DNA from: an uncultured virus (IMG/VR IMGVR_UViG_3300025869_000012) | Lineage: Duplodnaviria; Heunggongvirae; Uroviricota; Caudoviricetes | Direction: 5' to 3' (one strand) | Length of the DNA stretch: 64,000 bases | Virus record (IMG/VR): IMGVR_UViG_3300025869_000012 | Part shown: piece after piece, positions 21,612 through 63,999 of the stretch | Layout: each line of letters opens with the position of its first letter | How positions within the stretch are numbered: the first letter of the stretch is position 1 | Translations under genes and position numbers: made by a program | The notes under the pieces: model-generated | The model's input: only the letters and a program-made list of their open reading frames with translations | Database searches by the model: none | Told to the model about the DNA's origin: nothing

Positions 21612-21862
21612 TTTGCTCCGCAAGGCTTGCCGTTGGCTATGTTAACCCAATTTTCTTTTTGAAACCAGTCACGTAATGTAGCACCTTTTTTTCTAGCACC
21701 TTTAACATTAGACTTACTGGATCTTTTATATTTACCTTGAGCTGCAGCAGATCTCTTGGCACTAATTACTTTTTGCCTCTGCTCTTTACTCATACTTTTG
21801 TATTTCTTATATGGTAAACAAACTTTCTTTGTTCCACCACCCTTTACTTTACTTTTTGGCAT
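21608..21862 (-). CDS. Small basic phage protein
   Basis: CLP...MS.E....KR and LRDWF.KE.WV...GKPCG motifs. Confidence 0.6.
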   Translation of the reverse strand: MPKSKVKGGGTKKVCLPYKKYKSMSKEQRQKVISAKRSAAAQGKYKRSSKSNVKGARKKGATLRDWFQKENWVNIANGKPCGAK

Positions 21863-22410
21863 TATACCTTATCTTTAATGTGGTTATACATTGCATCACC
21901 TATTTCCTCTCCAAACGTTGAGTCTGATTTATAGTGTGCTTTAGCTACATTTCTGCTGTATGAAATATCTTTACCAGCCTGTATGAAGTCCTTTGCTGCA
22001 TTAGGATGTTTATCTGCTAATAATTTACCTATCATAACACCTTGTGCTGAGTGACCTGATGGGTATGAAGGTGTCTTCATGCTGTTAAGCTCATATTGCT
22101 TTAAATCAATATCAATTTCTTCTGCAACTCTTTTAGGCCTAGGTCTTTTATAAAACCTTTTTAGTTCTAATATAGGCTTTGAACTTTGTTCTATTAAAGA
22201 ATCAACTAATTTCTTATCGTGCGATACTTTATTTTTTTTAGCAACATTACTAAATGTACCTGCTATATCGTCTTTATCATCAACAAATTTTTTATTCATT
22301 GGTATCTTTGATATTTCTTTTACCTCATTGTAAGTACCAAGTGATTTATTTGCAGGTGGTTTTTTACCTTTAAACTTATCAACATCAAAGTCTTTAAATA
22401 AATCTTTCAT
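21862..22410 (-). CDS. PAP2/vanadium-haloperoxidase superfamily phosphatase
   Basis: K..YKRPRP, PSYPSGH, SR....HY.SD; ATG 22410 preferred. Confidence 0.82.
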   Translation of the reverse strand: MKDLFKDFDVDKFKGKKPPANKSLGTYNEVKEISKIPMNKKFVDDKDDIAGTFSNVAKKNKVSHDKKLVDSLIEQSSKPILELKRFYKRPRPKRVAEEIDIDLKQYELNSMKTPSYPSGHSAQGVMIGKLLADKHPNAAKDFIQAGKDISYSRNVAKAHYKSDSTFGEEIGDAMYNHIKDKV

Positions 22411-22511
22411 TTTTTTACACAATTGGGTACACGTCTGCCACCCTTCTTTTTGAAGCCAACTTGTTTATAACCAGTCCAACATTTAGGTTTTTTCTTATAA
22501 TCTTTTTTCAT
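22407..22511 (-). CDS. Small basic Cys protein (34 aa, not in ORF track)
   Basis: CWTGYKQVGFKKKGGRRVPNCV. Confidence 0.6.
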   Translation of the reverse strand: MKKDYKKKPKCWTGYKQVGFKKKGGRRVPNCVKK

Positions 22512-50876: not shown

Positions 50877-53090
50877 TTATTTTATTATTTGTGAAGTAAA
50901 ACCTTCGTTATTATACTTTGAAAAACTTAAGTCTACTTTTGCTTTTTGAATCTTTTTATTCGGCTGATAAAGGTGTCTATTACATGCCATAATAGCAAGC
51001 CCGCTGCTAATAGTAGCATCAAACTTAGTACGCTTAGTAATATCAAACCTCGACCAATCATTTAGTGTTCTGTTAAAATACATGTTACCACAACCTCCAT
51101 CTGACTTTAAACCTACATTTTGTTGTATGTAAGTTTCAATAGCTGCCGCGTGAGCTTGCTTTATATCTTCACTAGAATTTGGTATACCACCTATTTCTTT
51201 TTCTGTGGTTGATAGTTTATTCCAAACTTTATCTGGCCTATTCATTGAATAACCTCTATAACCGCGTCTTCTTAAATGATACAATAAACGTGGTTTGTTA
51301 TTCTCTGCAAGTATTGGCATGCCATAAAACACTAATGCCATTAAAACATCTTCAAAAAATATTTCAGCGGTTGCTGGTCTAGCCACGTACTCTAAAAAGA
51401 ATTGACTAGGAGGCGCGTCCTCCATACTAAACTTTGTTAATCCATGTAAAGCACCATTAGATCCTAAACCGTCTACAGTACCTGATATATCATAACTATC
51501 ACAACCAAAAGCACCCATGTGTTCATTGCCTGGATAATTAGTTCCGTTTTTGTCAATTACTTTATTTTGCAAATGTGACGGTGGTACCCAACTAACTTTA
51601 AATCTACCGCCTGGATCTGGGTAAAACTGTACGTTTGAATCTTTTACCCCGTTAACCCACTGAAAATTACCAGTAGATACACCTTGATTTGTTTCTTCGT
51701 TGTAATCTATTTGTTCGTATATTTTTACTAGATTAAATATACTATTCTTTGTTTCATCTCTAAACGCATGTTCTTCAGATCTTGGAAACTGTCTGTAAAA
51801 CTCGTTTAATGCATCTTGATCATTTTTTAAACCATCTGCTTCATTTTGCCAGTGATCTATAACGCCAGTATCAATAATGTCGTTGTGTGGGCCGTGGATC
51901 TCGTTATCTGGTGTATCAAACACAGGTAAGCCATACTCATCCATAAATCCTTCATAGTTCCACTCCATTGGTATAAAAAACGAATATAGTCCTGAAGCTG
52001 TTTGGCCATTTTTATTTCTTTTAGTTACGTCAGAGTTATAATATAATTTCTTAAAATTATCACCACCTTTATCTAGTGCATTACAAGTACTACCCATCAT
52101 ACACTTACCTATGATTCTACTACCTAATCTTAGAGTTGTTTTAGTTACTCTCCAGTTGTTTAATATATTATCTGGTCTTTCCCACTTACCTGATTCATCG
52201 TGTGCAAGAAGTTTTAGTTTCTCACCATCATATGAATTATCACCGGTGTTTTTCCAATCGATAGTCGTATCAAGACCGGTAAGTTCTTCTGGTTGATCGC
52301 TGGCAGCAACGGTAAGCTTTCTTCTTGTAAGCTTAGACGCTGGTACTCTGTACGCCAACTCTGTCTTCGGCCTGTCCATTCCATCCTGTATAGGTTTGAA
52401 AAAGAAAGGATAGTTGACTGATATTGGAACAACTTTATCCGTGAACATCTTTTTAGCGTCGGCACCAGACTTAGATAATATACCGAATCTTGCATCTGAT
52501 GATATTGTGGCAAGGTTAACGATTTCACCTGAGGCCATAAATGAAAAACCAGATCGTCTGTTTTTAAGGTAACACATGCCATATGATCTTGTATCTGATT
52601 TACAAGCTTCCCAGAATATAAAGAATAATCTATTTGCTTCTCTAAAATCAGGGTGTCCAACGTCAATCTTTGACCATTGGAGGTACATGTAATGAGTACC
52701 AGTAACATAAGTAGCAACACCCTTGTTATAAAACCAGAAACCATTTTCTCTTCTTTTAAATTCATCCTCTATGTAATCAATATATTTGTTTTTAAACTCA
52801 CCAGGATATTCTCTCCAATCAAATATTGATTTTATCTTATTGAGTTCTTTTGGGTATGGCATCACTTGCCATTTGTCATTTTCAAACTTATGTATTTTCT
52901 TTGGCGCTTTTGGTAATGCTATTTGAAAGTTTTGTATTTCTATTATATCACCAATCTGCCCTGTCTTAGATATAACAACAATGTCGTGTTCTTTATTATA
53001 CCCGTACTTCCACTTTTTACTTTTGTTTAACCTATTAACAGTTGTTAACTTTATTGGTTGAACAATTTTGTATAATGTTTGGTTGTACAT
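50877..53090 (-). CDS. terL: Terminase large subunit
   Basis: KNRRSGFS, HDESGKW, GST, FGCDSYD, ENNK, FDATISSG. Confidence 0.9.
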   Translation of the reverse strand: MYNQTLYKIVQPIKLTTVNRLNKSKKWKYGYNKEHDIVVISKTGQIGDIIEIQNFQIALPKAPKKIHKFENDKWQVMPYPKELNKIKSIFDWREYPGEFKNKYIDYIEDEFKRRENGFWFYNKGVATYVTGTHYMYLQWSKIDVGHPDFREANRLFFIFWEACKSDTRSYGMCYLKNRRSGFSFMASGEIVNLATISSDARFGILSKSGADAKKMFTDKVVPISVNYPFFFKPIQDGMDRPKTELAYRVPASKLTRRKLTVAASDQPEELTGLDTTIDWKNTGDNSYDGEKLKLLAHDESGKWERPDNILNNWRVTKTTLRLGSRIIGKCMMGSTCNALDKGGDNFKKLYYNSDVTKRNKNGQTASGLYSFFIPMEWNYEGFMDEYGLPVFDTPDNEIHGPHNDIIDTGVIDHWQNEADGLKNDQDALNEFYRQFPRSEEHAFRDETKNSIFNLVKIYEQIDYNEETNQGVSTGNFQWVNGVKDSNVQFYPDPGGRFKVSWVPPSHLQNKVIDKNGTNYPGNEHMGAFGCDSYDISGTVDGLGSNGALHGLTKFSMEDAPPSQFFLEYVARPATAEIFFEDVLMALVFYGMPILAENNKPRLLYHLRRRGYRGYSMNRPDKVWNKLSTTEKEIGGIPNSSEDIKQAHAAAIETYIQQNVGLKSDGGCGNMYFNRTLNDWSRFDITKRTKFDATISSGLAIMACNRHLYQPNKKIQKAKVDLSFSKYNNEGFTSQIIK

Positions 53091-53362
53091 TATGTAGATC
53101 TGTTTTCAGCAAAGCCGCCAAAAGCTTGTGGCTTATCTTCTTTCAATTTACCATCTAACATATTCTGCTCGTCTTGTATTTTGTTTAATATTTCAAACGC
53201 ATCAAATATAGCTAGCTTTTTAGTTGCTGCTGCATTTTTTAATCTATCAGCTGATACATCTTCTTCTGTATCTATAATTTCTTCTTTGGCTACTTTAATT
53301 AATTCATCAACCGCCTTATAACCAGCTTGGATTATATTCTTCTTCTTGTCCTTGATATTCAT
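53090..53362 (-). CDS. Possible terminase small subunit
   Basis: Helical 90-aa protein overlapping the terL start. Confidence 0.45.
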   Translation of the reverse strand: MNIKDKKKNIIQAGYKAVDELIKVAKEEIIDTEEDVSADRLKNAAATKKLAIFDAFEILNKIQDEQNMLDGKLKEDKPQAFGGFAENRST

Positions 53363-53912
53363 ATTTAATTGTAATTGAATTAGTTAACACTCTATATAAC
53401 CTCTCGCGCTCTATAACAAACTCAAACTTACTATTGGGACTAAACCCCACTAAAGTATTTTTTGTTATTCCTAGCGCGTCTAAGGAATTATTAGAATATT
53501 TTAAAACACCAATCAAAGGTTGTTCTTTTTCCTCACTAAACTTCTCATATGATTTTATTGGTTTTACAAAACAATACTCATCAGGCGCAGTCCATATACC
53601 TTTACTTTTATATAAAAATATTTGGTCTTTAGCAACACAGTATGTATGCTCGTCTATAAAGCTTCTACTGTTTTTCTCTAAGCCCTCTGCGTTATACCAA
53701 CGTCTAAATACATTATGGTGAAGAATTACTTCATCACCAATTTGTATATTAGTATCACCAACTTTAGGTAACGCTTTTACAACTCCTGTACGGTTTATCA
53801 TTAAATGATCTTCTATTGAAGCGTTCAGCACGAGTTTAGTATCACCTACTTGTTTCGTGTTGTTGTAGCGTTTACCTTTTGGTGTTATGATAAAGTCAAA
53901 TAACCCTTTCAA
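53316..53912 (-). CDS. GroES/Cpn10-like co-chaperonin (two lobes)
   Basis: FIITP...GVVKALP...IQIGDEVILHH; second lobe CFVKP...GVLKY. Confidence 0.6.
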   Translation of the reverse strand: MKGLFDFIITPKGKRYNNTKQVGDTKLVLNASIEDHLMINRTGVVKALPKVGDTNIQIGDEVILHHNVFRRWYNAEGLEKNSRSFIDEHTYCVAKDQIFLYKSKGIWTAPDEYCFVKPIKSYEKFSEEKEQPLIGVLKYSNNSLDALGITKNTLVGFSPNSKFEFVIERERLYRVLTNSITIKYEYQGQEEEYNPSWL

Positions 53913-54127
53913 TACTCTAGGTTATACTCGACTGATATTGCCATGTTTTTATTAAAGTCTTTCCATGGTAATACGTCTTCATTTTTTTTAATAAACACAC
54001 TATATTTGTCTTTACCGTCTATGATATCACAAATAGTGTGCCCGCCATAAACCTCTTGACCTACAGAATAGTGCATAGCATCGTTCTTGTAATCTTTGCC
54101 AACACTAATTTTTCTTATTAGTTTCAT
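53909..54127 (-). CDS. Conserved hypothetical protein
   Basis: IRKISVG.DYK.DAMHYSVGQ. Confidence 0.6.
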   Translation of the reverse strand: MKLIRKISVGKDYKNDAMHYSVGQEVYGGHTICDIIDGKDKYSVFIKKNEDVLPWKDFNKNMAISVEYNLEY

Positions 54128-54359
54128 CTTCCTCTATTTTTTGATATTCACCTGAGTTAACATCAATGTTCAACTTATCACCCTTACCGTACAACACATC
54201 CATCTTCTGATGAAACTCTTCTAGTTGTCTCTGTAAATTTATAATAGCTTGTGCTATTACTACCTTTTGTGTTTCTAAAGTACCAAGTCTAAGCTTAGCT
54301 TGATTAATGTTAGAAACTCTATCTTGTAATTCTTTTAGTTCGTCTTTTTTTATTTTCAT
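54105..54359 (-). CDS. Small coiled-coil protein (possible fibre chaperone)
   Basis: Heptad helix plus YG...NID..SGE. Confidence 0.5.
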   Translation of the reverse strand: MKIKKDELKELQDRVSNINQAKLRLGTLETQKVVIAQAIINLQRQLEEFHQKMDVLYGKGDKLNIDVNSGEYQKIEEDETNKKN

Positions 54360-54370
54360 TGTATTAAATT

Positions 54371-55276
54371 TTATTTTTTATTTTTTGGTTTTCTGCTATC
54401 AATAAACCAATTTTTATATTTATCTCTTTTAGCAGTTATGTATTCAAAGTACTTATCAACTTTTTCTTTCCAGTTTTTATCTATCCTAGGACATATAACT
54501 CCTGATTTAGGACTTGAAAAAACTTTGTTGATATAATTTCTTGCATCATGCTTGTTATCAAACAAATGATTACTAACACAATAAAAAGATCCATAAAATA
54601 TATTGTTCCATACATCAAATGGTTCTATGTCTTTACCTAATACACTTGCATATACAGCACTTTCACTTAAATGCGTTGTGTAAACTTTCTTAGACTTTTG
54701 TATATAGTAATACATGTCCATCTCTCTTGGCAATACGTTTTCCTGCCCAAACAAATCTTTCATTTCACCAATTATCTGATGGGTTGTTATCGGGTGTGGC
54801 TTAAATAAAACGTTACCTTTATGTGTTCTTTGTATATGCCTCATTTTATTCAAACAACATCTGTCTTTTAATTTGTTTGAACCTGGAAGTATAACTAAGT
54901 AATCTTTAGCTGGCCACTTTCGGTAGTCATCTAATCTATCTTTGTACTTGTTGGCTGTGTTATCTGTTATATTACTTACAAAATAAGAAGCATAATCTAA
55001 AACTTCATGATCTTTATCATTAAACGCGTCTGGTAATTGCGCATCTCTTATTTTAAAATTCATTGGCTGTAAATAAAAACACGTTGCCAACTCTGTGTAT
55101 GCCATTGTTTTAAAGTAAGGCATTTCCTCTGCCATTACATCATAAGCATACTCTATTCCGTTTTCGCTACACTTTCGTATAACGTAGCCTTCTACTTGCT
55201 CTAAGTAATCGAGCTTATCATTTTTTTGAAGGTGCCCTATTCTTTCTTTAAGGACCTTCCTATTAAACATTTCCAT
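54371..55276 (-). CDS. KpsS/KpsC-like CMP-ulosonate (Kdo) glycosyltransferase candidate
   Basis: VLFKPHP and IQKSKKVYTTHLSESAVYASVLGK resemble the capsule-synthesis GT-B C-lobe. Confidence 0.55.
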   Translation of the reverse strand: MEMFNRKVLKERIGHLQKNDKLDYLEQVEGYVIRKCSENGIEYAYDVMAEEMPYFKTMAYTELATCFYLQPMNFKIRDAQLPDAFNDKDHEVLDYASYFVSNITDNTANKYKDRLDDYRKWPAKDYLVILPGSNKLKDRCCLNKMRHIQRTHKGNVLFKPHPITTHQIIGEMKDLFGQENVLPREMDMYYYIQKSKKVYTTHLSESAVYASVLGKDIEPFDVWNNIFYGSFYCVSNHLFDNKHDARNYINKVFSSPKSGVICPRIDKNWKEKVDKYFEYITAKRDKYKNWFIDSRKPKNKK

Positions 55277-55305
55277 ATTATTAAATTAAATTTAAATTTC
55301 TTTAT

Positions 55306-55315
55306 ATACTATTAC
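55306..55315 (-). promoter_or_regulatory. Candidate late promoter TGTAATAGTA
   Basis: Shared motif in a short intergenic gap. Confidence 0.35.
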
Positions 55316-55335
55316 ACACTTTTAATCTTTTCTAA

Positions 55336-58300
55336 CTAGGTGCCAACGCTGTTGTAGTCTACCCTGTCAGTATTGTAATCTGCTCTTGTAGTATTGTAAA
55401 AAGATATACCAGTAGTAAATGTTGTTGTTGTGTTAAATACCGTGTTAGTACTTATAACAGTATTGGTTGCTCTTGTAGTATTGTAAGTTGTAGTAGTAGC
55501 TCTATTAGTTGATACCACAGTTGTTGTGTTAGTTGAAGTGTTGTAAGTTGTAGTTGTATTTCTGTTTGTAAGGGTTGACGTGTTAAATACAGTAACAGTT
55601 GCTGTTGTGGTGTTGAACGTGGTAGTTGTAGCTGTGGTAGTATTAAATACTGTGGCTGTGATTCTGATTGTTCCTGTAGCCGTGCTGGTAGATTTGCTTG
55701 TTTCGTATGTAGTTGTAGTGGCTCTGTTAGTTGACACAACAGTACTTGTAGCTTTCTCCGTAACAGTACTTGTATTAAATACAGTTGTTGTGTTTCTATT
55801 TGTACTTATAGTAGTTATAAATATTGTAGTTCTTGATGTGTTAAAGGTTGTGGTTGTGTCAATATTTGTTTCGTACGTCGTGCTATATACAGTTATAGTG
55901 TTAGTACTTGTGTTAAAAGTAGTTGTGGTAGCTGTGCTAGTGTTAAACGTTGTTACTGTAGCTGTTGTAGTATTAAATACCGTTATTGTATTTGTTGATG
56001 TATTAAATACGGTATTAGTTGTTCTATTAGTTGACACTACTGTATTTGTAGCTTTACTAGTATTTGTTGATGTGTTAAATACAGTGGTTGTACTAGTATT
56101 TGTATTATAAGCAGTTGTTGTACCTCTTGTAGTATTAAAAGTTGTTGTAGTATCTACATTAGTTGAGTATGTTGTTGTATATGCCGTAATAGTGTTGGTT
56201 GATGTATTAAAAGTTGTGGTAGTATCGATGTTTGTAGATACTGTCGTGCTTGTTGCTCTATTTGTACTAACTACAGTACTAGTTGCTTTTTGTGTTACAG
56301 TTGATGTATTAAATACAGTAACAGTAGCTGTACTAGTATTGAAAGTAGTAGTTGTTGCTCTATTTGTTGATACAGTTGTTGTAGTATTAAAAGTTGTTGT
56401 AGTACTAGTATTAAAAGTTGTAGTAGTAGCTGTACTAGTATTAAAAGTCGTTGTTGTAATAAATGTGGTTGTAGTTGAAGTGTTAAATACAGTAACGGTA
56501 GCCGTGCTTGTATTAAACGTAGTTGTAGTATCAACGTTTGTAGACACCGTGGTACTAGTAGTAACAGTTGTAGCAGTGCTTGTGTTAAATACAGTATTTG
56601 TAGTTTTTGTAGTTTCGTATGTAGTAGTAGTTGCTCTATTTGTACTGTATGTAGTTGTAGTACCAAATGTAGTCGTTGTGCTAGTATTAAAGGTGGTGGT
56701 TGTAGCTTGGTTAGTACTATATGTAGTTGTTGTATTAAACACAGTTGTTGTACTGGTATTGAATACTGTTACTGTGCTGGTAGAAGTATTAAAAGCAGTA
56801 GTAGTGGCTCTGTTTGTAGATATAGTTGTAGTTCTTGATGTTTGCGTTGTAGTCGAAGTATTAAAAACAGTGTTAGTTGTTTTTGTTGTTTCAAACGTGG
56901 TGGTCGTAGCTCTATTTGTACTAATAGTAGTAGTTCTACTAGTTGCTGTAGATGTTGACGTATTAAATGTAGTTGTTGTAGCTCTATTAGTAGATATAGT
57001 CGTAGTCCTTGAAGTCTGTGTTGTTGTGCTTGTATTAAATACAGTATTAGTTGCTGTTGACGTATTATATGTAGTAGTAGTTGCCCTATTTGTACTTATC
57101 GTAGTGGTTCTGCTAGTAGAGGTTGCAGTCGAGGTATTAAAAGTAGTTGTGGTGGCTCTGTTAGTAGAGTATGTTGTTGTTGTAGCTCTATTGGTAGATA
57201 TAGTAGTTGAGCGAGATGTAGATGTAGTAAACACAGTTGTCGTTGCTCTATTAGTAGAATATGTTGTGCTAGTTCCAAATGTAGTTGTCGTTGCTCTATT
57301 GGTAGATATAGTCGTGCTAGTTCCAAAGGTAGTTGTTGTAGACCTATTTGTTGAAACGGTTGTGCTGGTTGCAAATGTTGTGGTTGTGTTATAAGTTGTA
57401 GTTGTATTAAAAGTAGTGGTTGTGGCACGGTTAGTACTAAACGTTGTGGTTGTACTTGTATTAAATGTTGTTGTTGTTGCTCTATTAGTAGAATATGTTG
57501 TAGTAGTTCCAAATGTAGTTGTTGTAGATCTACTTGTTGATACAGTTGTACTAGTTGCAAACGTTGTAGTTGTATTAAAAGTCGTAGTTGTGTTAAACGT
57601 GGTAGTTGTGGCACGGTTGGTACTAATTGTTGTTGTTGTACTAGTGTTAAATGTAGTTGTAGTACTTCTACTTGTAGCGGTGCTTCTACTTGTAGCAGTA
57701 CTTTTAGTTGTGTTAAACGTTGTGGTTGTACTAGTGTTAAACACGGTATTAGTGGCTCTACTTGTAGACATAATGGTGGTTCTACTTGTGGCAGTACTTC
57801 TACTTGTAGATTTATTAGTTACCGTACTTGTGTTAAATATTGTTGTGGTATTAAACGTAGTAGTTGTGTTTCTGTTAGTAGATGTATTTCTACTTGTAGC
57901 TGTTGTTTTATTTGTTATTGTACTAGTATTAAATGTAGTGGTAGTTGCCCTATTAGTACTTATAGTTGTAGTTCTACTAGTTTGAGTTGTTGTAGACGTG
58001 TTAAACGTAGTAGTAGTTGAACTACTTGTAGCGGTGCTTCTAGTTGTTAGTTTGTTTGTTATTGTGCTGGTGTTAAATATTGTTGTGGTGTTAAAAGTTG
58101 TTAGAGTTGTGTAGGTTGTAGTTGTATTAGTACTAGTATTAAACGTTGTAGTTGTGCCAGTACTGTATCCACCACCATCTGTTCTTGCAGCGTGACAGTC
58201 TAATGATGCACCATTATCAAAAATACCAGACGCTGACGGAAGCGTATCACTACCAATAGGAAGTAACACAGGCTGATTAACATCAAACTCAAACCAACTA

Positions 58301-58878
58301 GTATTATCAGTACCACCTTCTATTTCATATGAAACATTTTCACTATCAGCACTATGCCTTAATCTAATTCTACCACCATTATCCATTAAAGCCTTAAGTA
58401 CATTGTACTGGCTATCCCCATCCGCATCTGTAGCAGACATTGCCAGTTTAGTAACACTTAGAACAGCAGCATTATTACCTCTTATTTGACCGGCACCAGG
58501 ATTTGCCATTGAAACATTTGTACTCCAGTTAAATACAGCACCTTCGTTGGTCCCGTCACCTCTAAACAGTATTTGATTTTTTGTTGTAGCAAGAACCGTA
58601 TTAGTACTTGTATTAAACGTTGTTGTAGTATTAAACGTTGTTGTAGTATTTCTGCTAGTAGACGTTGATCTACTTTCCGTCGTGGTTCTATTTGTAGACA
58701 CTGTGGCACTAGTAGCTGTTGATCTAGTTGTAGCTGTTGCTCTAGTTGTGGTAAACGTAGTGGTAGTACTTTTACTTGTAGCTGTTGACCTAGTTGTGTT
58801 AAAAGTTGTGGTTGTATTTGTTGCTGTAAGTCTATCTGTAACTAAAGATGTTTGAAAAGTTGTAGTAGTATTAGGCAT
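55336..58878 (-). CDS. Thr-rich repeat protein B with embedded globular domain
   Basis: TTTTFNTS / STNRA repeats; ATG 58878 (MPNTTTT) overlaps the methyltransferase stop. Confidence 0.85.
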   Translation of the reverse strand: MPNTTTTFQTSLVTDRLTATNTTTTFNTTRSTATSKSTTTTFTTTRATATTRSTATSATVSTNRTTTESRSTSTSRNTTTTFNTTTTFNTSTNTVLATTKNQILFRGDGTNEGAVFNWSTNVSMANPGAGQIRGNNAAVLSVTKLAMSATDADGDSQYNVLKALMDNGGRIRLRHSADSENVSYEIEGGTDNTSWFEFDVNQPVLLPIGSDTLPSASGIFDNGASLDCHAARTDGGGYSTGTTTTFNTSTNTTTTYTTLTTFNTTTIFNTSTITNKLTTRSTATSSSTTTTFNTSTTTQTSRTTTISTNRATTTTFNTSTITNKTTATSRNTSTNRNTTTTFNTTTIFNTSTVTNKSTSRSTATSRTTIMSTSRATNTVFNTSTTTTFNTTKSTATSRSTATSRSTTTTFNTSTTTTISTNRATTTTFNTTTTFNTTTTFATSTTVSTSRSTTTTFGTTTTYSTNRATTTTFNTSTTTTFSTNRATTTTFNTTTTYNTTTTFATSTTVSTNRSTTTTFGTSTTISTNRATTTTFGTSTTYSTNRATTTVFTTSTSRSTTISTNRATTTTYSTNRATTTTFNTSTATSTSRTTTISTNRATTTTYNTSTATNTVFNTSTTTQTSRTTTISTNRATTTTFNTSTSTATSRTTTISTNRATTTTFETTKTTNTVFNTSTTTQTSRTTTISTNRATTTAFNTSTSTVTVFNTSTTTVFNTTTTYSTNQATTTTFNTSTTTTFGTTTTYSTNRATTTTYETTKTTNTVFNTSTATTVTTSTTVSTNVDTTTTFNTSTATVTVFNTSTTTTFITTTTFNTSTATTTTFNTSTTTTFNTTTTVSTNRATTTTFNTSTATVTVFNTSTVTQKATSTVVSTNRATSTTVSTNIDTTTTFNTSTNTITAYTTTYSTNVDTTTTFNTTRGTTTAYNTNTSTTTVFNTSTNTSKATNTVVSTNRTTNTVFNTSTNTITVFNTTTATVTTFNTSTATTTTFNTSTNTITVYSTTYETNIDTTTTFNTSRTTIFITTISTNRNTTTVFNTSTVTEKATSTVVSTNRATTTTYETSKSTSTATGTIRITATVFNTTTATTTTFNTTTATVTVFNTSTLTNRNTTTTYNTSTNTTTVVSTNRATTTTYNTTRATNTVISTNTVFNTTTTFTTGISFYNTTRADYNTDRVDYNSVGT

Positions 58879-59935
58879 TATCTGCACCTCCTTCCCCAAT
58901 AAGTATACCGTTAACAAAGTAATTATAGTTAACGCCTAGCTTACATATTTCGTATATAGTATTATCTGAGTCATCAAAATCTATTTGTGTTATTTCTATT
59001 TCATCACCAGCAACGCCATATAACTTATCACCAACAAGTAGTTGATTTACATTAAAATCTCGCCACGTATTATTTCTTTTTGCTATTATAGGCTGGTTGC
59101 CAGTTGCTTTTAAATTAGAGTTGATAGTGTAAATACCTTTTGCTTTCATTACAAAAACATTTTTATCACCTCTTTGTTTTGTTGATGTTTTACCTGATAC
59201 ATCTGATGTCAATAGTGTGTCGTGTTTAACCGCTTGCCACATAGGAACAGCATCATCACTGTTAACATGAATAGTAGCGTCTTGCCTTACCACGCCATAG
59301 CCTGTTGCTGGCTTTTGATTTGTATACACAGGTAAGTGATATACAGTTCTGTTGAAATATTGATTTGCAGGTGGATTAATATTAACATCGTAAAAATCAA
59401 TATGATCATCTGGCCAATAAAACTTCATCCACGGGTCTGTTGTACCACCGCTCCAGTTCCACCACGATATTCTACTGCCTTGCTTTGCTTTTTGCTTTAC
59501 AAAATACGCAAACTTTGGGTGTAAGTCTGCATCAGCGTATGTGTCCATTAATATAACGTCGTACCTACCCGCTTCTTGCATTAAACTAAACCACCTGTCG
59601 TTTACGGCTCTTACTGTTGGATTACTAGAGGCAAACTCAGCTAGCTTAGGTTGTATTTGTGGATGCGTTTCTGCTATTGTATGTGATGCAGGTTTTCTAG
59701 CCTGCACAGCTGTAGCTAATATACCCATGCCAAAACCACACTCTAGAACATGGTCACCTTCATTAACGCACACCTCTGCCATCTTTTCCATAATAGGCTG
59801 TTCCCAACCCATCATAACCTCCCATGTTTCTTGCGCTGCCGGGTTAAACCAAACAATATCACCATTGTCCCTAACTGTAAGGTCTGCCTCGTGATAATTG
59901 ACTTGTGTATCCGACGGTTTTTCGTATCCTGACAT
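58871..59935 (-). CDS. Class I SAM methyltransferase (RMT2/GAMT-like) fused to degenerate Hint domain
   Basis: VMMGWEQPIM, VLECGFGMGI, HTIAE.HP, YDVILMDTY; C-terminal ATGNQP, LLVGDKL, YNYFVNGIL. Confidence 0.75.
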   Translation of the reverse strand: MSGYEKPSDTQVNYHEADLTVRDNGDIVWFNPAAQETWEVMMGWEQPIMEKMAEVCVNEGDHVLECGFGMGILATAVQARKPASHTIAETHPQIQPKLAEFASSNPTVRAVNDRWFSLMQEAGRYDVILMDTYADADLHPKFAYFVKQKAKQGSRISWWNWSGGTTDPWMKFYWPDDHIDFYDVNINPPANQYFNRTVYHLPVYTNQKPATGYGVVRQDATIHVNSDDAVPMWQAVKHDTLLTSDVSGKTSTKQRGDKNVFVMKAKGIYTINSNLKATGNQPIIAKRNNTWRDFNVNQLLVGDKLYGVAGDEIEITQIDFDDSDNTIYEICKLGVNYNYFVNGILIGEGGADNA

Positions 59936-59940
59936 ATTTT

Positions 59941-59950
59941 TATTATTACA
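59941..59950 (-). promoter_or_regulatory. Candidate late promoter TGTAATAATA
   Basis: Shared motif in a short intergenic gap. Confidence 0.35.
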
Positions 59951-59961
59951 TGTTTATTTTC

Positions 59962-62900
59962 TTAGTTACAACCTCTACTACAGCCACCACCGCCACCACT
60001 TGCTGTGAATGTTGATCTTGATGTGTTGAACGCTGTTACGAATACTGTAGTTGTATTTGTTGCTGTAGATCTTGTTGTATTAAACGTAGTTGTGGTATTA
60101 TACGTGGTTGTTGTACTTCTTGATGTATTGTAAGCTGTAGTTGTGCTAAATGTAGTGGTTGTATTAAACACGGTTGTGGTGTTAAATGTGGTCGTTGTAT
60201 TGTATGTGGTTGTAGTGTTAAATGTTGTTTCAGTAGTTCTATTTGTTGATGTATCTCTATTAGTAGAAACAATTGTCACAAACGCGGTGTAATGAGACTT
60301 GGATCTACCAACGGTTGTCGTAGCGGTAGTAGTACTAGTGTTATATGTTGTACTAGTACTTCTAGATTCTGTTGTATTTCTACTAGTTGCTGTAGCTCTA
60401 TTAGTAGATCTTATATGTGATGAATATGTAGTTGTAAACTGAGTTGTTGTATCAAACGTGGTAGTCGTATTTCTATTTGTACTATATGTGGTAGTGGTAC
60501 CAAACGTTGTAGTGGTACTAGTATTGAAAGTAGTTGTAGTAGCTCTATTGGTTGCCCGTATGTGTGATGCGTATGTAGTTGTGGTATTAAATGTAGTAGT
60601 GGTAGTAAATACAGTATTTGTAGTTCTACTAGTTGCCGTAGATCTATTAGTAGATCTTATAAGCGATGAATATTGCGTTACAAAAGTTGTAGTTGTACTA
60701 AACGTAGTGGTAGTACTAGTATTAAATGTTGTTGTGGTATCTCTATTTGTTGATATAGTAGTACTCTTGCTCGTGTTATATGTGGTTGTTGTGTTAAAAG
60801 TGGTTGTTGTGTTAAAAGTAGTTGTCGTAGCTCTATTTGTACTGATTGTTGTACTAGTACTAGTATTAAATGTAGTAGTTGTTGATCTACTTGTTGCTGT
60901 AGATTTACTTGTAGCTGTACTTCTAGTAGTCTGTGTGTTTGTGCTAGTATTGAATGTGGTTGTAGTTGATTTACTAGTTTGTGTCGTTGTGCTAGTATTA
61001 AACGTAGTTGTCGTGGCTCTATTTGTACTGATTGTTGTACTAGTACTGGTGTTAAACGTGGTGGTCGTTGATCTACTTGTTGCTGTACTTTTGCTTGTAG
61101 CTGTACTTCTAGTGGTCTGTGTATTTGTACTGGTGTTAAAAGTAGTTGTGGTTGACCTACTAGTTTGCGTAGTTGTACTAGTGTTAAACGTAGTGGTAGT
61201 TGATTTACTTGTTTGCGTTGTGGTGCTAGTGTTAAATGTAGTTGTAGTAGCTCTATTAGTACTAGTACTAAACGTAGTTGTTGTAGACGTGTTAAACGTA
61301 GTTGTGGTACTTGTAGAAGTATTAAACGTAGTAGTTGTAGCTCTATTAGTTGAATACGTAGTAGTAGTATTAAACGTTGTCGTAGTAGATGTATTAAAAG
61401 TAGTAGTAGTATTTGTACTTGTATTATACGTTGTAGTCGTATTTCTATTTGTACTATATGTGGTAGTGGTACCAAAAGTTGTAGTGGTACTAGTGTTGAA
61501 AGTAGTTGTGGTAGCTCTATTTGTTGAGTACGTAGTTGTGGTATTGAATGTTGTAGTGGTAGACGTATTAAATGTTGTTGTAGTACTCTTACTCGTATTA
61601 AAAGTGGTAGTTGTATCTACATTAGTAGAATATGTAGTGGTAGTACCAAACGTGGTAGTAGTACTTGTATTAAATACAGTTGTAGTAGATTTACTTGTTT
61701 CATATGTAGTAGTTGTAGCCCTGTTAGTAGATATGGTAGTTGTCCTGTTTGTAGATGTAGACGTACTAGTATTAAATGTAGTGGTAGTTGCCCTATTAGT
61801 ACTTATAGTTGTAGTTCTACTAGTTTGAGTTGTTGTTGAAGTATTAAATGTGGTGGTTGTATTAGTACTTGTGTTATAAGTTGTTGTAGTGTTTCTATTT
61901 GTAGATATAGTTGTACTTCCAGCGGTGGTTGTATTAGTACTTGTATTAAACACAGTATTAGTAGACCTACTAGTTGATACCACCGTATTAGTAGCTCTGT
62001 TAGTTGATATAGTTGTAGTTCTACTTGTAGATGTTGACCTATCAGTTTCGTAAGTAGTGGTGGTTGCTCTATTAGTACTTATTGTAGTTACTCTACTTGT
62101 AGCTGTGGCAGTAGAAGTATTAAATGTAGTTGTGGTTGCTCGGTTAGTAGATACTACAGTATTAGTAGCTATATTAGTTTCGTATGTAGTTGTATATGCT
62201 GTAATCGTATTAGTGCTAGTGTTAAACACTGTAACAGTATCCGTACTAGTATTAAATACAGTATTAGTTGCTCTATTAGTACTAACAACTGTACTTGTTG
62301 ACTTTTGTGTAACCGTACTTGTATTAAACACTGTGTTTGTGGTGGTTGATGTGTTAAACGTTGTGGTAGTGCTTGTTGATGTGTTGTACGTAGTGGTAGT
62401 TGCTCTGTTGGTAGCTATTGTAGTCGTAAATACAGTTGTAGTACTAGTTGATGTGTTGAATGTTGTTGTAGTATCTATATTGGTACTATACTCAGTAGAT
62501 GTTGATCTATTGGTTACAACAACAGTATTGGTAGCTCTATTAGTAGAGTATGTTGTGGTAGTATTTCTATTAGTTGATACCACCGTGCTTGTTGTCTTCT
62601 GTGTTACAGTAGACGTATTGAAAACAGTATTAGTAGTTCTAGTTGTTTCAAATATCGTTGTTCTACTAGTTTCATATGCTGTTTCAAAAACAGTATTAGT
62701 GGTTATGTTAGTAGAGAAAGTCGTAGTAAAGTTTGTTGTAGTATTAGTAGATGTATTAAATGTAGTAGTGGTAGATGTGCTAGTGTTGAAAGTTGTGGTA
62801 AACGTAGTGGTAGTATTGAAAACTGTACTAGTATCTATATTAGTCGAGTATGCAGTATTAGTAGTTCTGTTAGTACTAACTACTGTATTGGTTGATCTGT

Positions 62901-63111
62901 TTGTAGAAAGTGTTGTATTGAAAGCTGTCGTCGTGGATGTTGACGTATTAAAGGTTGTTGTAGTTGATGTAGACGTGTTGAATGTGGTAGTTGTACTTGT
63001 AGATGTGTTGAATGTGGTTGTTGTAGAATACGCTGTCTGCGTCGTACGGTTTGTAGACGTGCTCCTCGAAGTTGAGGTACTTCTCTTAAATATTCTAAAT
63101 AAATCCCACAT
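59962..63111 (-). CDS. Thr-rich repeat protein A (1049 aa)
   Basis: Almost entirely TTTTFNTS / STNRA repeats; ends GGGGGCSRGCN. Confidence 0.85.
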   Translation of the reverse strand: MWDLFRIFKRSTSTSRSTSTNRTTQTAYSTTTTFNTSTSTTTTFNTSTSTTTTFNTSTSTTTAFNTTLSTNRSTNTVVSTNRTTNTAYSTNIDTSTVFNTTTTFTTTFNTSTSTTTTFNTSTNTTTNFTTTFSTNITTNTVFETAYETSRTTIFETTRTTNTVFNTSTVTQKTTSTVVSTNRNTTTTYSTNRATNTVVVTNRSTSTEYSTNIDTTTTFNTSTSTTTVFTTTIATNRATTTTYNTSTSTTTTFNTSTTTNTVFNTSTVTQKSTSTVVSTNRATNTVFNTSTDTVTVFNTSTNTITAYTTTYETNIATNTVVSTNRATTTTFNTSTATATSRVTTISTNRATTTTYETDRSTSTSRTTTISTNRATNTVVSTSRSTNTVFNTSTNTTTAGSTTISTNRNTTTTYNTSTNTTTTFNTSTTTQTSRTTTISTNRATTTTFNTSTSTSTNRTTTISTNRATTTTYETSKSTTTVFNTSTTTTFGTTTTYSTNVDTTTTFNTSKSTTTTFNTSTTTTFNTTTTYSTNRATTTTFNTSTTTTFGTTTTYSTNRNTTTTYNTSTNTTTTFNTSTTTTFNTTTTYSTNRATTTTFNTSTSTTTTFNTSTTTTFSTSTNRATTTTFNTSTTTQTSKSTTTTFNTSTTTQTSRSTTTTFNTSTNTQTTRSTATSKSTATSRSTTTTFNTSTSTTISTNRATTTTFNTSTTTQTSKSTTTTFNTSTNTQTTRSTATSKSTATSRSTTTTFNTSTSTTISTNRATTTTFNTTTTFNTTTTYNTSKSTTISTNRDTTTTFNTSTTTTFSTTTTFVTQYSSLIRSTNRSTATSRTTNTVFTTTTTFNTTTTYASHIRATNRATTTTFNTSTTTTFGTTTTYSTNRNTTTTFDTTTQFTTTYSSHIRSTNRATATSRNTTESRSTSTTYNTSTTTATTTVGRSKSHYTAFVTIVSTNRDTSTNRTTETTFNTTTTYNTTTTFNTTTVFNTTTTFSTTTAYNTSRSTTTTYNTTTTFNTTRSTATNTTTVFVTAFNTSRSTFTASGGGGGCSRGCN

Positions 63112-63119
63112 ATACTACA

Positions 63120-63761
63120 TTATGAAAAATCACCAACAAAATTGACTAATGCTTGAGTTGATGATATCACAACGTATGATATTACTGACGTGTCGTTTGC
63201 TCCTGTAGCAAAATTTACACTAGCACCCGCTGGTGTTAGCATGTTACTTGGTAAAGCTGCCATAGCAAAATCTGCCCCTATACTTGAAGGGTTTTTAAGT
63301 ATTATAACACCAGATTGTCCAACGTTTTCACTGGCTATTGTCATAACTAATGAGTTTGAATTATCTACTAAGTTAACTACAAAGTTATCGTTTGCTGTTA
63401 AATTTATCGTTGATACACCACTACTAGGCGTTACTGTTGTTATTGTTCTTCTTAAATTTTGAGTTACTTTTATACTACCTGTTACATCAAAATCACTACT
63501 TACTGTTCCTGAACCTGTCAGAGCTAATGTGCTACCATCAAATGTTAAATTAGCCTCGCCGTTTAAACTGTCGGCATCAGATGTTGTTATTATCCTATTA
63601 TCAGCGCCATTAGCAATATCTACATTACTATAATTTGCTTTTGTAAAATTACCAAGTTGTGCTAGCGTAAAGTTTTTAGTTGAACCTGATACATCTGTAC
63701 CTATCAACTTATCACCGTCTGTTAAACTTGTGTCTGCTGCTATTCTACTAATTCTAGGCAT
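63120..63761 (-). CDS. Tail fibre/spike-like protein
   Basis: DKLIGTD...TKNFTL, NRIIT...LNGEANLTFDG fibre motifs; ATG 63761 preferred. Confidence 0.6.
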   Translation of the reverse strand: MPRISRIAADTSLTDGDKLIGTDVSGSTKNFTLAQLGNFTKANYSNVDIANGADNRIITTSDADSLNGEANLTFDGSTLALTGSGTVSSDFDVTGSIKVTQNLRRTITTVTPSSGVSTINLTANDNFVVNLVDNSNSLVMTIASENVGQSGVIILKNPSSIGADFAMAALPSNMLTPAGASVNFATGANDTSVISYVVISSTQALVNFVGDFS

Positions 63762-63765
63762 ACTA

Positions 63766-63999
63766 CTATTTTTTATTAAACTTCTCGAAACTTCGACCGC
63801 CAAAATAGGCACCGATTACAGTTATCAATACTAACTGTAGCAAGTCCGTCCATTTTTGTTCTACGTTAAAATTAACTGATCCACTATCCACAAATACCAT
63901 AAGGACAGTTGATACAATAAGGAAAACTAGCACAAGGGGTCTTACCGATCTTGTTAGCCAGTTGCCGTGTTCTAAATCTGCTTTCCATCTTTCTGTTAC
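63766..63999 (-). CDS. Holin of 3TM/GTA-holin type (C-terminal part, truncated by window end)
   Basis: Manual translation RWKAD...WLTRSVRP-TM-...TM-YFGGRSFEK*. Confidence 0.75.
   Translation of the reverse strand, partial: VTERWKADLEHGNWLTRSVRPLVLVFLIVSTVLMVFVDSGSVNFNVEQKWTDLLQLVLITVIGAYFGGRSFEKFNKK

What the first reader, a model, noticed from the sequence alone, without database searches (positions are those of the whole stretch)
55336..63111. The two Thr-rich proteins carry the same rare motifs in mirror-image order
Seen, protein A N to C: SRTTIF (~62660), TVTQK (~62605, ~62310), TITAY (~62200), STNVD (~61620), KSTATSRS (~60900-61100), TESRSTST (~60360), FNTTRSTAT (~60070). Protein B N to C: FNTTRSTAT (~58790), TESRSTST (~58670), KSTATSRSTATSRS (~57680), STNVD (~56535), TVTQK (~56295), TITAY (~56185), SRTTIF (~55830). 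The order is approximately reversed although both genes are on the same strand, so this is not a DNA inversion or a simple duplication. Inference: A and B co-evolve as an in-register antiparallel heterodimeric filament, or motifs are graded by position along a shared fibre axis.
Basis: partly seen in the sequence, partly recalled or inferred. Interest (0 to 1): 0.85.

Follow-up and report, generated by a model that had tools for sequence, protein, structure and literature searches.

The report
Two-gene mirror-coded phage fibre zipper
Two neighbouring threonine-rich genes of a marine crAss-like phage encode proteins that match residue by residue when one is read backwards (aromatic opposite basic), and they gain and lose length together at mirror-image sites, so they almost certainly zip into one very long antiparallel fibre.

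Summary
All seven motifs lie at the stated coordinates in reversed order. Rare-k-mer positions are anticorrelated (rho -0.45 to -0.54 for k>=8).

The underlying signal is complementarity, not identity. Read A from N to C against B from C to N, and 816 residues align without a gap. Of 118 paired Arg/Lys, 117 face Phe/Tyr, and no same-class pairs occur. Forward, shuffled, self and non-cognate controls all score far lower.

All 23 related phage gene pairs tested show the same pattern. Their repeat lengths match within about 2% over a four-fold range (r=0.995). Between close relatives, indels recur with the same size and sign at mirror positions, for example -62/-62, +36/+36 and -14/-14.

A GAMT-like methyltransferase gene always lies between the two genes.

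Earlier notes of this scan described the same kind of code on other DNA. I found no publication describing it.

The parts
59962..63111 (-). Gene A: 1049 aa, 48% Thr. Strict dipeptide phase (F/Y/R at even positions 130 of 144; S/N at odd positions 232 of 250). No Pro.
55336..58878 (-). Gene B, counted from the ATG at 58878 (MPNTTT...): 1180 aa, 43% Thr. The ORF stays open up to a TTG at 58917. The ATG follows GGAGGT, overlaps the stop of the methyltransferase gene, and gives the N-terminus MPNT shared by 17 of 23 homologues (MANTTT in three more).
58871..59935 (-). P0003, 354 aa. Residues 40-150 resemble guanidinoacetate N-methyltransferase. The C-terminal ~150 aa may be Hint-like (lead only). 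The gene always lies between A and B.
60658..63105 (-). A residues 3-818: the ungapped arm that faces B residues 1167-352 in reverse order.
55378..57825 (-). B residues 352-1167: the partner arm of A 3-818.
59995..60654 (-). A residues 820-1039. They pair with B 351-252 and B 99-1. One-residue bulges (Arg 819, 852, 901) lie at block joints. A 922-940 is unpaired, opposite the base of the knob.
58582..58878 (-). B residues 1-99, which pair with A 1039-941.
57826..58125 (-). B residues 252-351, which pair with A 921-820.
58126..58581 (-). Globular 'knob' of B (aa 100-251), looped out of the pairing. A homologous domain sits in A, 80-108 aa from its C-end, in another clade.
59965..59994 (-). Unpaired C-terminal tail of A, GGGGCSRGCN. 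A Gly run followed by an Arg-Gly is present in 22 of 23 homologues.
60812..61194 (-). 186-nt (62-aa) tandem duplication in A, 2.1 copies.
57263..57660 (-). 186-nt (62-aa) tandem duplication in B, 2.1 copies, at the mirror position. Its unit has a different sequence from the A unit.
61328..61665 (-). 174-nt period array in A, 1.9 copies.
56786..57181 (-). 174-nt period array in B, 2.3 copies, in mirrored order relative to the 186-nt array.
63120..63812 (-). Conserved upstream neighbour U1 (230 aa, no family).
54371..55276 (-). Conserved downstream neighbour D1 (301 aa, phrog_26179, function unknown). Small genes, the terminase and the portal follow it.

Best explanation
A and B are the two strands of one heteromeric fibre. 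The chains run antiparallel and in register over about 1015 residue pairs: the A N-end lies beside the B C-end, and the A C-end beside the B N-end.

Both chains keep a two-residue phase, as extended beta strands do. One face carries Thr plus the 'code' residues. Wherever one chain has Arg or Lys, the other has Phe or Tyr, which suggests cross-strand cation-pi pairs, with Thr:Thr pairs in between. The other face carries Ser, Asn, Ala and Thr.

The code fixes the register. A length change in one chain must therefore be matched by an equal change at the mirror site in the other, much as in an RNA stem. A 152-aa knob loops out of B about 100 pairs from one end.

Shown: the sequence complementarity, the length match, the mirrored indels and the conservation.
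Inferred: physical binding, beta conformation, cation-pi chemistry, location on the virion as a fibre, and a contour length of roughly 0.34 micrometre if the chains are fully extended.

The methyltransferase encoded between the genes probably modifies a guanidino group. The Arg in A's Gly-rich tail is a candidate target (inference only).
For: Register.
- With i+j=1170 over A 1-840 there are 91 aromatic:basic pairs and 1 same-class pair.
- The next-best of 341 registers has 41; the mean is 9.1 with sd 8.5.

Gapped alignment of A against reversed B scores 565, with 122 complementary pairs, 0 same-class pairs and an 816-residue ungapped block. The controls score far lower:
- forward B: 70
- 20 dipeptide shuffles: at most 104
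- A against reversed A: 215
- B against reversed B: 211

Pairing in the window's own proteins:
- A Arg faces Phe 47, Tyr 1, Thr 1.
- B Arg faces Phe 46, Tyr 2.
- All 21 Lys face Phe or Tyr.

Family and co-evolution.
- All 23 related pairs score 126-926 for the cognate reversed partner. Forward scores are 13-204, shuffles 25-130, non-cognate partners 93-504. One ungapped block spans 1635 residues in L042.
- Repeat lengths: r=0.995, median difference 10 aa over 417-1650 aa, and 0 of 100000 re-pairings do as well.
- The mirror placement of indels fits better than the parallel placement in 15 of 16 locus comparisons, with exact matches in size and site.
- Arrays of 186-nt and 174-nt period occur in both genes, in mirrored order.
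- Both partners of a paired site changed class at 74 sites, against 13.7 expected, summed over 12 comparisons.
- The knob sits at the same distance from the A-C/B-N end whichever chain carries it.

Context. The genes lie in the late operon, next to terminase and portal. A's repeat type recurs in a phage protein with a baseplate-wedge N-domain.
Against: - No physical evidence exists. The complex predictor was unavailable.
- AlphaFold2 on a short A homologue alone gave mean pLDDT 40, which says nothing either way.
- The gapped alignments reward the code they then count. Only the ungapped scan and the indel and length tests are free of that circularity.
- In the covariation test, one-sided class changes are numerous (211 in A only, 224 in B only). 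Some come from ambiguous homology alignment of repeats and from Tyr, which faces Thr 14 of 25 times.
- One locus comparison of 16 fits parallel better than mirror (L040/L043). In 3 of 16 the random-position control reaches the mirror fit in more than a quarter of trials.
- One 24-aa deletion in L008 A has no partner in B.
- A two-stranded ribbon about 0.34 micrometre long has no solved precedent that I know of. The real fibre may be coiled or multi-ribbon.
- Presence in the virion is inferred from gene context only.
Confidence: 0.78

Rival explanations
1. Only a coarse reversal of repeat-type zones, inherited from an ancestor. A and B are independent fibres or rods (for example beta-solenoids) that never pair.
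For: Identical-motif order is mirrored only at coarse scale: unique anchors less than 100 aa apart are discordant about half the time. Local tandem duplication preserves zone order without any selection. AlphaFold2 gave no usable model.
Against: It does not explain the 816-residue ungapped Arg/Lys:Phe/Tyr register. It does not explain lengths matched to about 2%. It does not explain same-size, same-sign indels at mirror sites. Repeat units vary from 6 to 62 aa, which a regular solenoid would not tolerate.
Confidence: 0.04
2. Each protein folds back on itself or forms homomers (A:A and B:B). The A/B resemblance is a by-product of self-complementary repeat units.
For: A against reversed A scores 215 and B against reversed B scores 211, both above the shuffled controls of at most 104. 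A single-chain fold-back version exists in Stenotrophomonas phage DLP6.
Against: The cognate A:B score is 565, with one 816-residue ungapped block and no same-class pair. Indels in A are matched in B, not within A. The repeat lengths of A and B track each other.
Confidence: 0.06
3. A and B are in one fibre in parallel orientation, or the constraint acts on nucleic acid (pairing of the two gene regions as DNA or RNA) rather than on protein.
For: Equal lengths alone would also fit a parallel heteromer.
Against: The forward alignment scores 70 against 565 for the reverse. Indel sites fit mirror better than parallel in 15 of 16 comparisons. Both genes are on the same strand with the same skew. Only 13 short inverted DNA repeats of 16-30 nt, 70-94% complementary, occur in the region. 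The dominant Thr:Thr pairs are not complementary codons.
Confidence: 0.02
4. The pairing is real, but the product is not a virion fibre. It could be, for example, an intracellular scaffold or ruler, or a secreted or ice- or glycan-binding sheet.
For: There are no proteomic data. The knob has no clear fold match: best Foldseek E 0.096 and best VIA Z 5.3, both below the tools' own guidance for trust. No PHROG or Pfam family matches A or B.
Against: The cassette is co-oriented with terminase, portal and the structural genes and lies directly upstream of them in all 38 loci that hold the pair. The same repeat type is fused to a baseplate-wedge N-domain in T4-like phages. The cassette evolves faster than the terminase (MT 43-56% against TerL 75-85% identity in most clades), as host-contact modules do.
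Confidence: 0.1

Closest known systems
Needle (receptor-binding tip) of the phage T4 long tail fibre protein gp37, PDB 2XGF
   Same: A thin phage fibre element built from long antiparallel beta strands with a two-residue pattern. The trimer with seven iron atoms held by histidines is stated in PMC6957217 (passages read). That each chain runs out to the tip and back is recalled, not read here.
   Different: gp37 is one gene and roughly a hundred residues per arm, with register set by His-x-His iron sites. Here there are two genes, about 1015 pairs, only 3 and 2 His, and register set by Arg/Lys:Phe/Tyr pairs. No sequence match to any PDB chain was found.
Single-chain fold-back repeat region of Stenotrophomonas phage DLP6 protein AAY80_265 ('baseplate wedge subunit protein', KU682439.2)
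   Same: Same Thr-alternating TNR-type repeats (hit of A at E 3.6e-11). Same aromatic:basic reverse code: 37 complementary against 2 same-class pairs over 274 positions, while the next register scores 12 and the sd is 3.2.
   Different: One chain with a turn near residue 974, arms of about 270 residues, fused to a baseplate-wedge N-domain, in a T4-like myophage. No methyltransferase gene lies between the arms.
Heterodimeric coiled-coil zippers and nucleic-acid duplexes (analogy of mechanism; general knowledge)
   Same: Two antiparallel or paired chains. Partner choice and register are set by a simple complementary code. Compensatory changes keep the pairing.
   Different: The conformation here is beta, not helical. 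The code is a sparse binary one (one code pair every 4-10 residues) in a Thr:Thr background. The partners are proteins.
Guanidinoacetate N-methyltransferase (PDB 1p1b, 1khh, 1xcj, 3orh), for the gene between A and B
   Same: P0003 residues 40-147 align to GAMT at E 1.5e-8, including the Gly-rich SAM motif and the D-T-Y stretch. The catalytic role of that Asp is recalled.
   Different: P0003 carries an extra C-terminal ~150 aa that looks Hint-like only by language-model features (score 0.86, a lead only). It is phage-encoded and locked between two fibre genes. Its substrate is unknown.

Membership tests
Mirror-coded antiparallel fibre pair (class noted earlier in this scan on other DNA; no published family found) | Unbroken two-residue phase in both proteins | tested here: met
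   A has F/Y/R at even positions 130 of 144 and S/N at odd positions 232 of 250. B has 139 of 144 and 240 of 252. The same holds in 25 distinct pairs.
Mirror-coded antiparallel fibre pair (class noted earlier in this scan on other DNA; no published family found) | Residue-by-residue reverse complementarity, aromatic opposite basic | tested here: met
   91 complementary pairs against 1 same-class pair in one ungapped register; the next-best register has 41. 117 of 118 paired Arg/Lys face Phe/Tyr. 23 of 23 related pairs show it.
Mirror-coded antiparallel fibre pair (class noted earlier in this scan on other DNA; no published family found) | Matched arm lengths and mirrored compensatory indels among relatives | tested here: met
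   r=0.995 and median difference 10 aa. Mirror fits better than parallel in 15 of 16 comparisons.
Mirror-coded antiparallel fibre pair (class noted earlier in this scan on other DNA; no published family found) | The two chains physically bind in that register | not testable with these tools
   The complex predictor was unavailable. The single-chain model had pLDDT 40.
T4 gp37-type needle | His-x-His iron-binding sites along the needle | tested here: not met
   Only 3 His in A and 2 in B.
T4 gp37-type needle | One chain running out and back | tested here: not met
   The two arms are separate genes with their own stops and starts.
T4 gp37-type needle | Sequence or fold similarity to 2XGF | tested here: inconclusive
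   No PDB chain matched A at E up to 10. No usable model was available for a fold search.
Regular beta-solenoid / TxT antifreeze-type repeat | Constant coil length | tested here: not met
   Units between hydrophobic positions vary from 6 to 62 aa. The two 62-aa duplications have different internal subdivisions.
GAMT / RMT2-like guanidino methyltransferase (P0003) | Sequence similarity over the SAM-binding core, with the Gly-rich motif | tested here: met
   E 1.5e-8 to 7e-8 against four GAMT chains, residues 40-150. Pfam gave only a weak Methyltransf_25 hit, E 0.087.
GAMT / RMT2-like guanidino methyltransferase (P0003) | Methylates a guanidino group (substrate identity) | not testable with these tools
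   That the Arg-Gly tail of A is the substrate is inference from adjacency and conservation.
Hint domain (C-terminal part of P0003) | Match to a Hint/intein profile | tested here: inconclusive
   No Pfam hit at E up to 10. Language-model look-alikes are mostly Hint clusters at 0.86, below the tool's trust level.
crAss-like (Crassvirales-type) phage | Muzzle-protein C-domain plus the matching terminase, portal and structural families | tested here: met
   PF25729 at E 3e-8 in the 2065-aa ORF. phrog_6681 terminase at 7e-170 and phrog_6547 portal at 2e-139. blastn matches to Flavobacterium and Maribacter phages.

The most novel reading that the evidence does not exclude
A and B form a protein 'duplex'. 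It would be a two-chain antiparallel beta ribbon more than a thousand rungs long. A binary aromatic:basic code writes its register into the sequence, so fibre length can evolve freely through paired duplications.

The same design occurs as a one-chain hairpin in T4-like phages and as a two-gene version here. The methyltransferase/Hint-like gene sits exactly where the hairpin turn would be. It may be the relic of an intein-like insertion that split a hairpin gene in two. It may also still act on the adjoining ends: A's Gly-Cys-x-Arg-Gly-Cys tail and B's N-terminus.
Probability: 0.55. Interest if true: 0.95.

Novelty: categorically new. Interest (0 to 1): 0.9.

Why it matters
If the two chains really pair as the sequences imply, this is a way of building a protein fibre that works like a nucleic-acid stem. 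Partner, polarity and register can be read from a simple residue code, and they are kept by compensatory changes.

That would give structural biology a new fibre architecture and protein design a natural, addressable beta-zipper. It would give phage biology a mechanism for tuning fibre length: the family spans 417 to 1650 pairs.

It is directly testable. The short pair in locus L020 can be co-expressed, and a single-chain version sits in the cultured Stenotrophomonas phage DLP6.

The locked-in guanidino methyltransferase also hints at enzymatic modification of a phage fibre.

Tried and rejected
- **Complex prediction.** Complex prediction on the short homologous pair in L020 was unavailable, so no verdict on binding.
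- **Single-chain model.** AlphaFold2 of L020 A alone gave mean pLDDT 40 and pTM 0.35, unusable. I ran no fold search with it.
- **Knob domain.** The model had mean pLDDT 69, with a core of 85-93. Foldseek against the PDB found no match at E<=0.001; the best was an atadenovirus fibre head at E 0.096. VIA-align wide gave a best Z of 5.3 to a JBD30 baseplate chain, below the level the tool says to trust. The fold is left unassigned.
- **Family and database searches.**
  - Pfam and PHROGs found no family for A, B or P0003 at default cut-offs.
  - A PDB sequence search with A gave 0 hits.
  - The ESM Atlas gave only unnamed viral clusters.
  - tblastn of P0003 against cultured phages found one unrelated giant-phage hit, so no cultured phage in that collection carries the cassette.
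- **The window's own assembly** is not held. The nearest record, G001, is a fragment of the same phage, so it was not used as independent evidence.
- **Ideas considered and dropped.**
  - B as an antisense derivative of an inverted copy of A: both genes share strand and skew, and they share forward peptides of 8-14 aa.
  - Misaligned patch recombination as the source of the paired indels: it would give opposite signs, and the signs observed are the same.
  - Simple distance-decay similarity around the middle gene: it cannot explain similarity between the far ends.
- **Literature.** Seven full-text searches found nothing describing such a pairing code or this gene pair. Only listings and abstracts were seen, except for passages of PMC3004832 and PMC6957217.

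Full report
**Setting.** The window is a crAss-like phage genome or a large part of one. The - strand between about 21.6 and 64 kb carries a late operon:
- a terminase (50877-53090, phrog_6681, E 7e-170)
- a portal (48465-50873, phrog_6547)
- virion proteins
- a 2065-aa ORF with the crAss muzzle C-domain (PF25729, E 3e-8)
- a 2894-aa ORF
- lysis genes

blastn links the terminase-portal region to Flavobacterium and Maribacter phages at 66-73% identity. The finding covers three genes just upstream of the terminase block:
- A: 59962-63111, 1049 aa, 48% Thr
- P0003: 58871-59935, 354 aa
- B: ORF 55336-58917, 43% Thr

B most likely starts at the ATG at 58878. This start follows GGAGGT and overlaps the stop of P0003. 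It gives the N-terminus MPNT that 17 of 23 homologues share, with MANTTT in three more.

Positions of shared rare k-mers are anticorrelated: rho -0.41 to -0.55 for k=8-10, and weaker (-0.10 to -0.31) for k=5-6. I moved blocks of B at random. For k=8 the observed rho is reached by 0 to 37 of 2000 shuffles, depending on block size (12 to 200 aa). For k=6 it is reached by 114-229 of 2000.

I cut each protein into six blocks and compared them by tf-idf k-mer cosine. The mirror order is the best of all 720 orders. With seven blocks it ranks 113 and 414 of 5040.

This mirror of identical motifs is coarse. Unique exact matches less than 100 aa apart are in mirrored order only about half the time (0.51). 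Those more than 250 aa apart are mirrored 0.64 of the time.

**Relatives.** A scan of viral contigs with P0003 returned 48 loci. In 38 of them, Thr-rich ORFs flank the P0003 homologue on both sides on the same strand. Two more are cut by a contig end, and eight distant methyltransferase loci have none.

Gene order is constant: U1-A-MT-B-D1...D5-terminase-portal. Terminase identity is 75-92%, while MT identity falls to 43-56%.

Thirty pairs are complete and 25 are distinct. I used 23 of these, leaving out L028 and L036, which are near-duplicates of L027 and L035.

First, both proteins keep a two-residue phase from end to end. In the window, F/Y/R sit at even positions 130 of 144 times in A and 139 of 144 in B. 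S/N sit at odd positions 232 of 250 and 240 of 252 times. Every homologue does the same.

Second, the Thr-rich lengths of A and B are matched. The correlation is r=0.995 with a median difference of 10 aa, over 417 to 1650 aa. None of 100000 random re-pairings does as well. The one outlier, L023, has a frameshifted A C-terminus.

Third, indels between close relatives come in pairs of equal size and sign at mirror-image sites:

| Loci compared | Indels in A (fraction from N) | Indels in B (fraction from C) |
|---|---|---|
| L004 / L008 | -62 at 0.64 | -62 at 0.64 |
| L011 / L013 | +36 at 0.33 | +36 at 0.35 |
| L013 / L016 | -14 at 0.83 | -14 at 0.85 |
| L011 / L012 | three -10 at 0.30, 0.39, 0.58 | three -10 at 0.31, 0.40, 0.60 |
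| L020 / L026 | -12, +12, -4 at 0.11, 0.44, 0.71 | -12, +12, -4 at 0.16, 0.46, 0.73 |

The mirror placement fits better than the parallel one in 15 of 16 comparisons; the exception is L040/L043. A random-position control reaches the mirror fit in 2 to 197 of 2000 trials for 13 comparisons, and in 570, 811 and 1507 of 2000 for the other three.

Not every indel is matched. A 24-aa deletion in L008 A has no partner.

Inside the window itself, both genes hold a 186-nt array of 2.1 copies (A 60812-61194, B 57263-57660). Both also hold a 174-nt array (A 61328-61665, B 56786-57181). The two arrays lie in mirrored order. The 62-aa units of A and B differ in sequence and subdivision, so these are separate events of equal size.

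**The pairing code.** After these results I consulted earlier notes of this scan. On other genomes they report Thr-rich fibre proteins that match in reverse, with aromatic residues opposite basic ones. I tested that claim here.

An ungapped scan of 80-residue windows of A along reversed B returned one constant offset for 14 of the 21 windows that start in A 1-801; four more had it as second best.

In the register i+j=1170 (B numbered from Met at 58878), A 1-840 holds 91 aromatic:basic pairs and one same-class pair. The next-best of 341 registers holds 41, and the mean is 9.1 with sd 8.5.

A gapped alignment with a class-only score gives 565, with 122 complementary pairs and no same-class pair. 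Its blocks are:
- A3-818 : B1167-352
- A820-851 : B351-320
- A853-900 : B319-272
- A902-921 : B271-252
- A941-1039 : B99-1

B 100-251 is looped out. The controls score 70 for forward B, at most 104 for 20 dipeptide shuffles, 215 for A against reversed A, and 211 for B against reversed B. The gapped score rewards the code it counts, so the ungapped scan and the indel and length tests are the independent evidence.

In the 1015 paired positions of the window:
- A's Arg faces Phe 47, Tyr 1, Thr 1.
- B's Arg faces Phe 46, Tyr 2.
- All 21 Lys face Phe or Tyr.
- Tyr is looser: 14 of 25 Tyr in A face Thr.
- Thr:Thr accounts for 363 pairs.

All 23 family pairs behave alike. L042 pairs over a single ungapped block of 1635 residues. 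Pooled pair counts add K:F, K:Y, Y:R, Y:H and W:Q.

At sites paired in one locus and traced by homology to a relative, both partners changed class 74 times against 13.7 expected, over 12 comparisons. Typical changes are a gain, a loss or a swap of a pair. One-sided changes are also common, 211 in A and 224 in B.

Units such as R-x3-F are their own reverse complement under this code:
- A's SRTTIF (149-154) lies opposite B's SRTTIF (R150:F1020, F154:R1016).
- A's FNTTR (1010-1014) lies opposite B's FNTTR (F1010:R30, R1014:F26).
- TVTQK and TITAY are partners: A K270 faces B Y900, and A Y306 faces B K864.
- The other three motifs merely lie in similar zones.

**The knob.** B 100-251 is a globular insert. 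A homologous domain (BLASTP E 2e-8, 27% identity over 151 aa) lies in A, 80-108 aa from its C-end, in the L011-L016 clade. In the window's clade and in L033 it lies in B, 79-90 aa from the N-end.

Under the antiparallel register these are the same place on the fibre. The model has a confident beta-rich core but no clear fold match.

**The gene between.** P0003 residues 40-147 align to guanidinoacetate N-methyltransferase at E 1.5e-8. Its C-terminal part looks Hint-like only by language-model features, at 0.86, and has no Pfam hit.

A ends in a Gly run followed by C-x-R-G-C-x, or in one clade by G-R-G. An Arg-Gly is present in 22 of 23 tails. In that same clade the match to P0003 stops at residue 203. 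I can only say that the adjacency and conservation hold here.

**Wider occurrence.** A's best database hits are proteins of about 1250-1420 aa that carry the Pfam baseplate-wedge family PF23786; 13 hits have E<=1e-5. One of them, from the cultured Stenotrophomonas phage DLP6, has a C-terminal repeat region that pairs with itself around a turn near residue 974. It shows 37 complementary against 2 same-class pairs over 274 positions, where the next register scores 12 and the sd is 3.2. This links the repeat type to a baseplate-anchored fibre and offers a bench model.

**Alternatives.**
- A nucleic-acid explanation fails. The genes share strand and skew, and only short weak inverted repeats exist.
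- Parallel pairing, self-pairing and mere zone reversal are each contradicted by the controls above.
- What is not shown is binding itself, the conformation, the oligomeric state and the presence on virions. The complex predictor was unavailable, and the single-chain model was poor.

**Known and new.** The nearest solved thing I can name is the T4 gp37 needle (PDB 2XGF). Its trimer and seven iron sites were read in PMC6957217; its out-and-back topology is recalled. It differs in gene number, scale and register device.

Seven literature searches found no description of such a code or gene pair. Within this scan the same kind of code was noted before on other DNA, so this window adds a crAss-like, two-gene, methyltransferase-linked member.

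Noticed in passing
window 58871-59935 (-) and 59965-59994 (-): A GAMT-like methyltransferase, with a possibly Hint-like C-domain, is locked between A and B in 38 loci. A's tail keeps a Gly run plus Arg-Gly in 22 of 23 homologues. The clade whose tail lacks the two Cys also lacks similarity to P0003 beyond residue 203.
   Followed up: partly
L055 9001-12867 (KU682439.2, Stenotrophomonas phage DLP6, AAY80_265; protein P0006): A cultured T4-like phage has a single-chain version. Two arms of about 270 aa pair in reverse around a turn near residue 974, with the aromatic:basic code, behind a baseplate-wedge N-domain.
   Followed up: partly
window 58126-58581 (-); L013 3416-4048: The ~150-170-aa knob domain sits in B near its N-end in some clades and in A near its C-end in others. 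In both cases it is 80-108 residues from that end of the pairing.
   Followed up: partly
L009 against L004: Differences between these two relatives are confined to the last 31% of A, the MT gene (80% identity, against 89-95% for the flanking genes) and the first 44% of B. This looks as if the central block A3'-MT-B5' was exchanged or diverged as one piece.
   Followed up: no
window A residues 819, 852, 901 (about 60655, 60556, 60409): Three one-residue bulges, each an Arg in a Y-[SA]-S-[LH]-I-R or similar motif, are the only odd-length interruptions of the pairing in A.
   Followed up: no
L023 4946-6973: The A homologue of this contig ends in a non-repeat, Leu/Ile/Gln-rich stretch instead of the Gly-Cys tail, and it is 137 aa short of its partner. 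This is probably a frameshift or a sequencing error.
   Followed up: no
window 24685-33369 (-) and 21862-22422 (-): A 2894-aa ORF has no PHROG or Pfam match; it is possibly a crAss-type virion RNA polymerase (untested). A PAP2-superfamily phosphatase ORF (E 1.1e-7) lies at the end of the late operon.
   Followed up: no
window 53000-56864 = G001:C1:1-3865: The nearest held virus record is a 30-kb fragment 100% identical to this part of the window. It ends inside gene B.
   Followed up: yes
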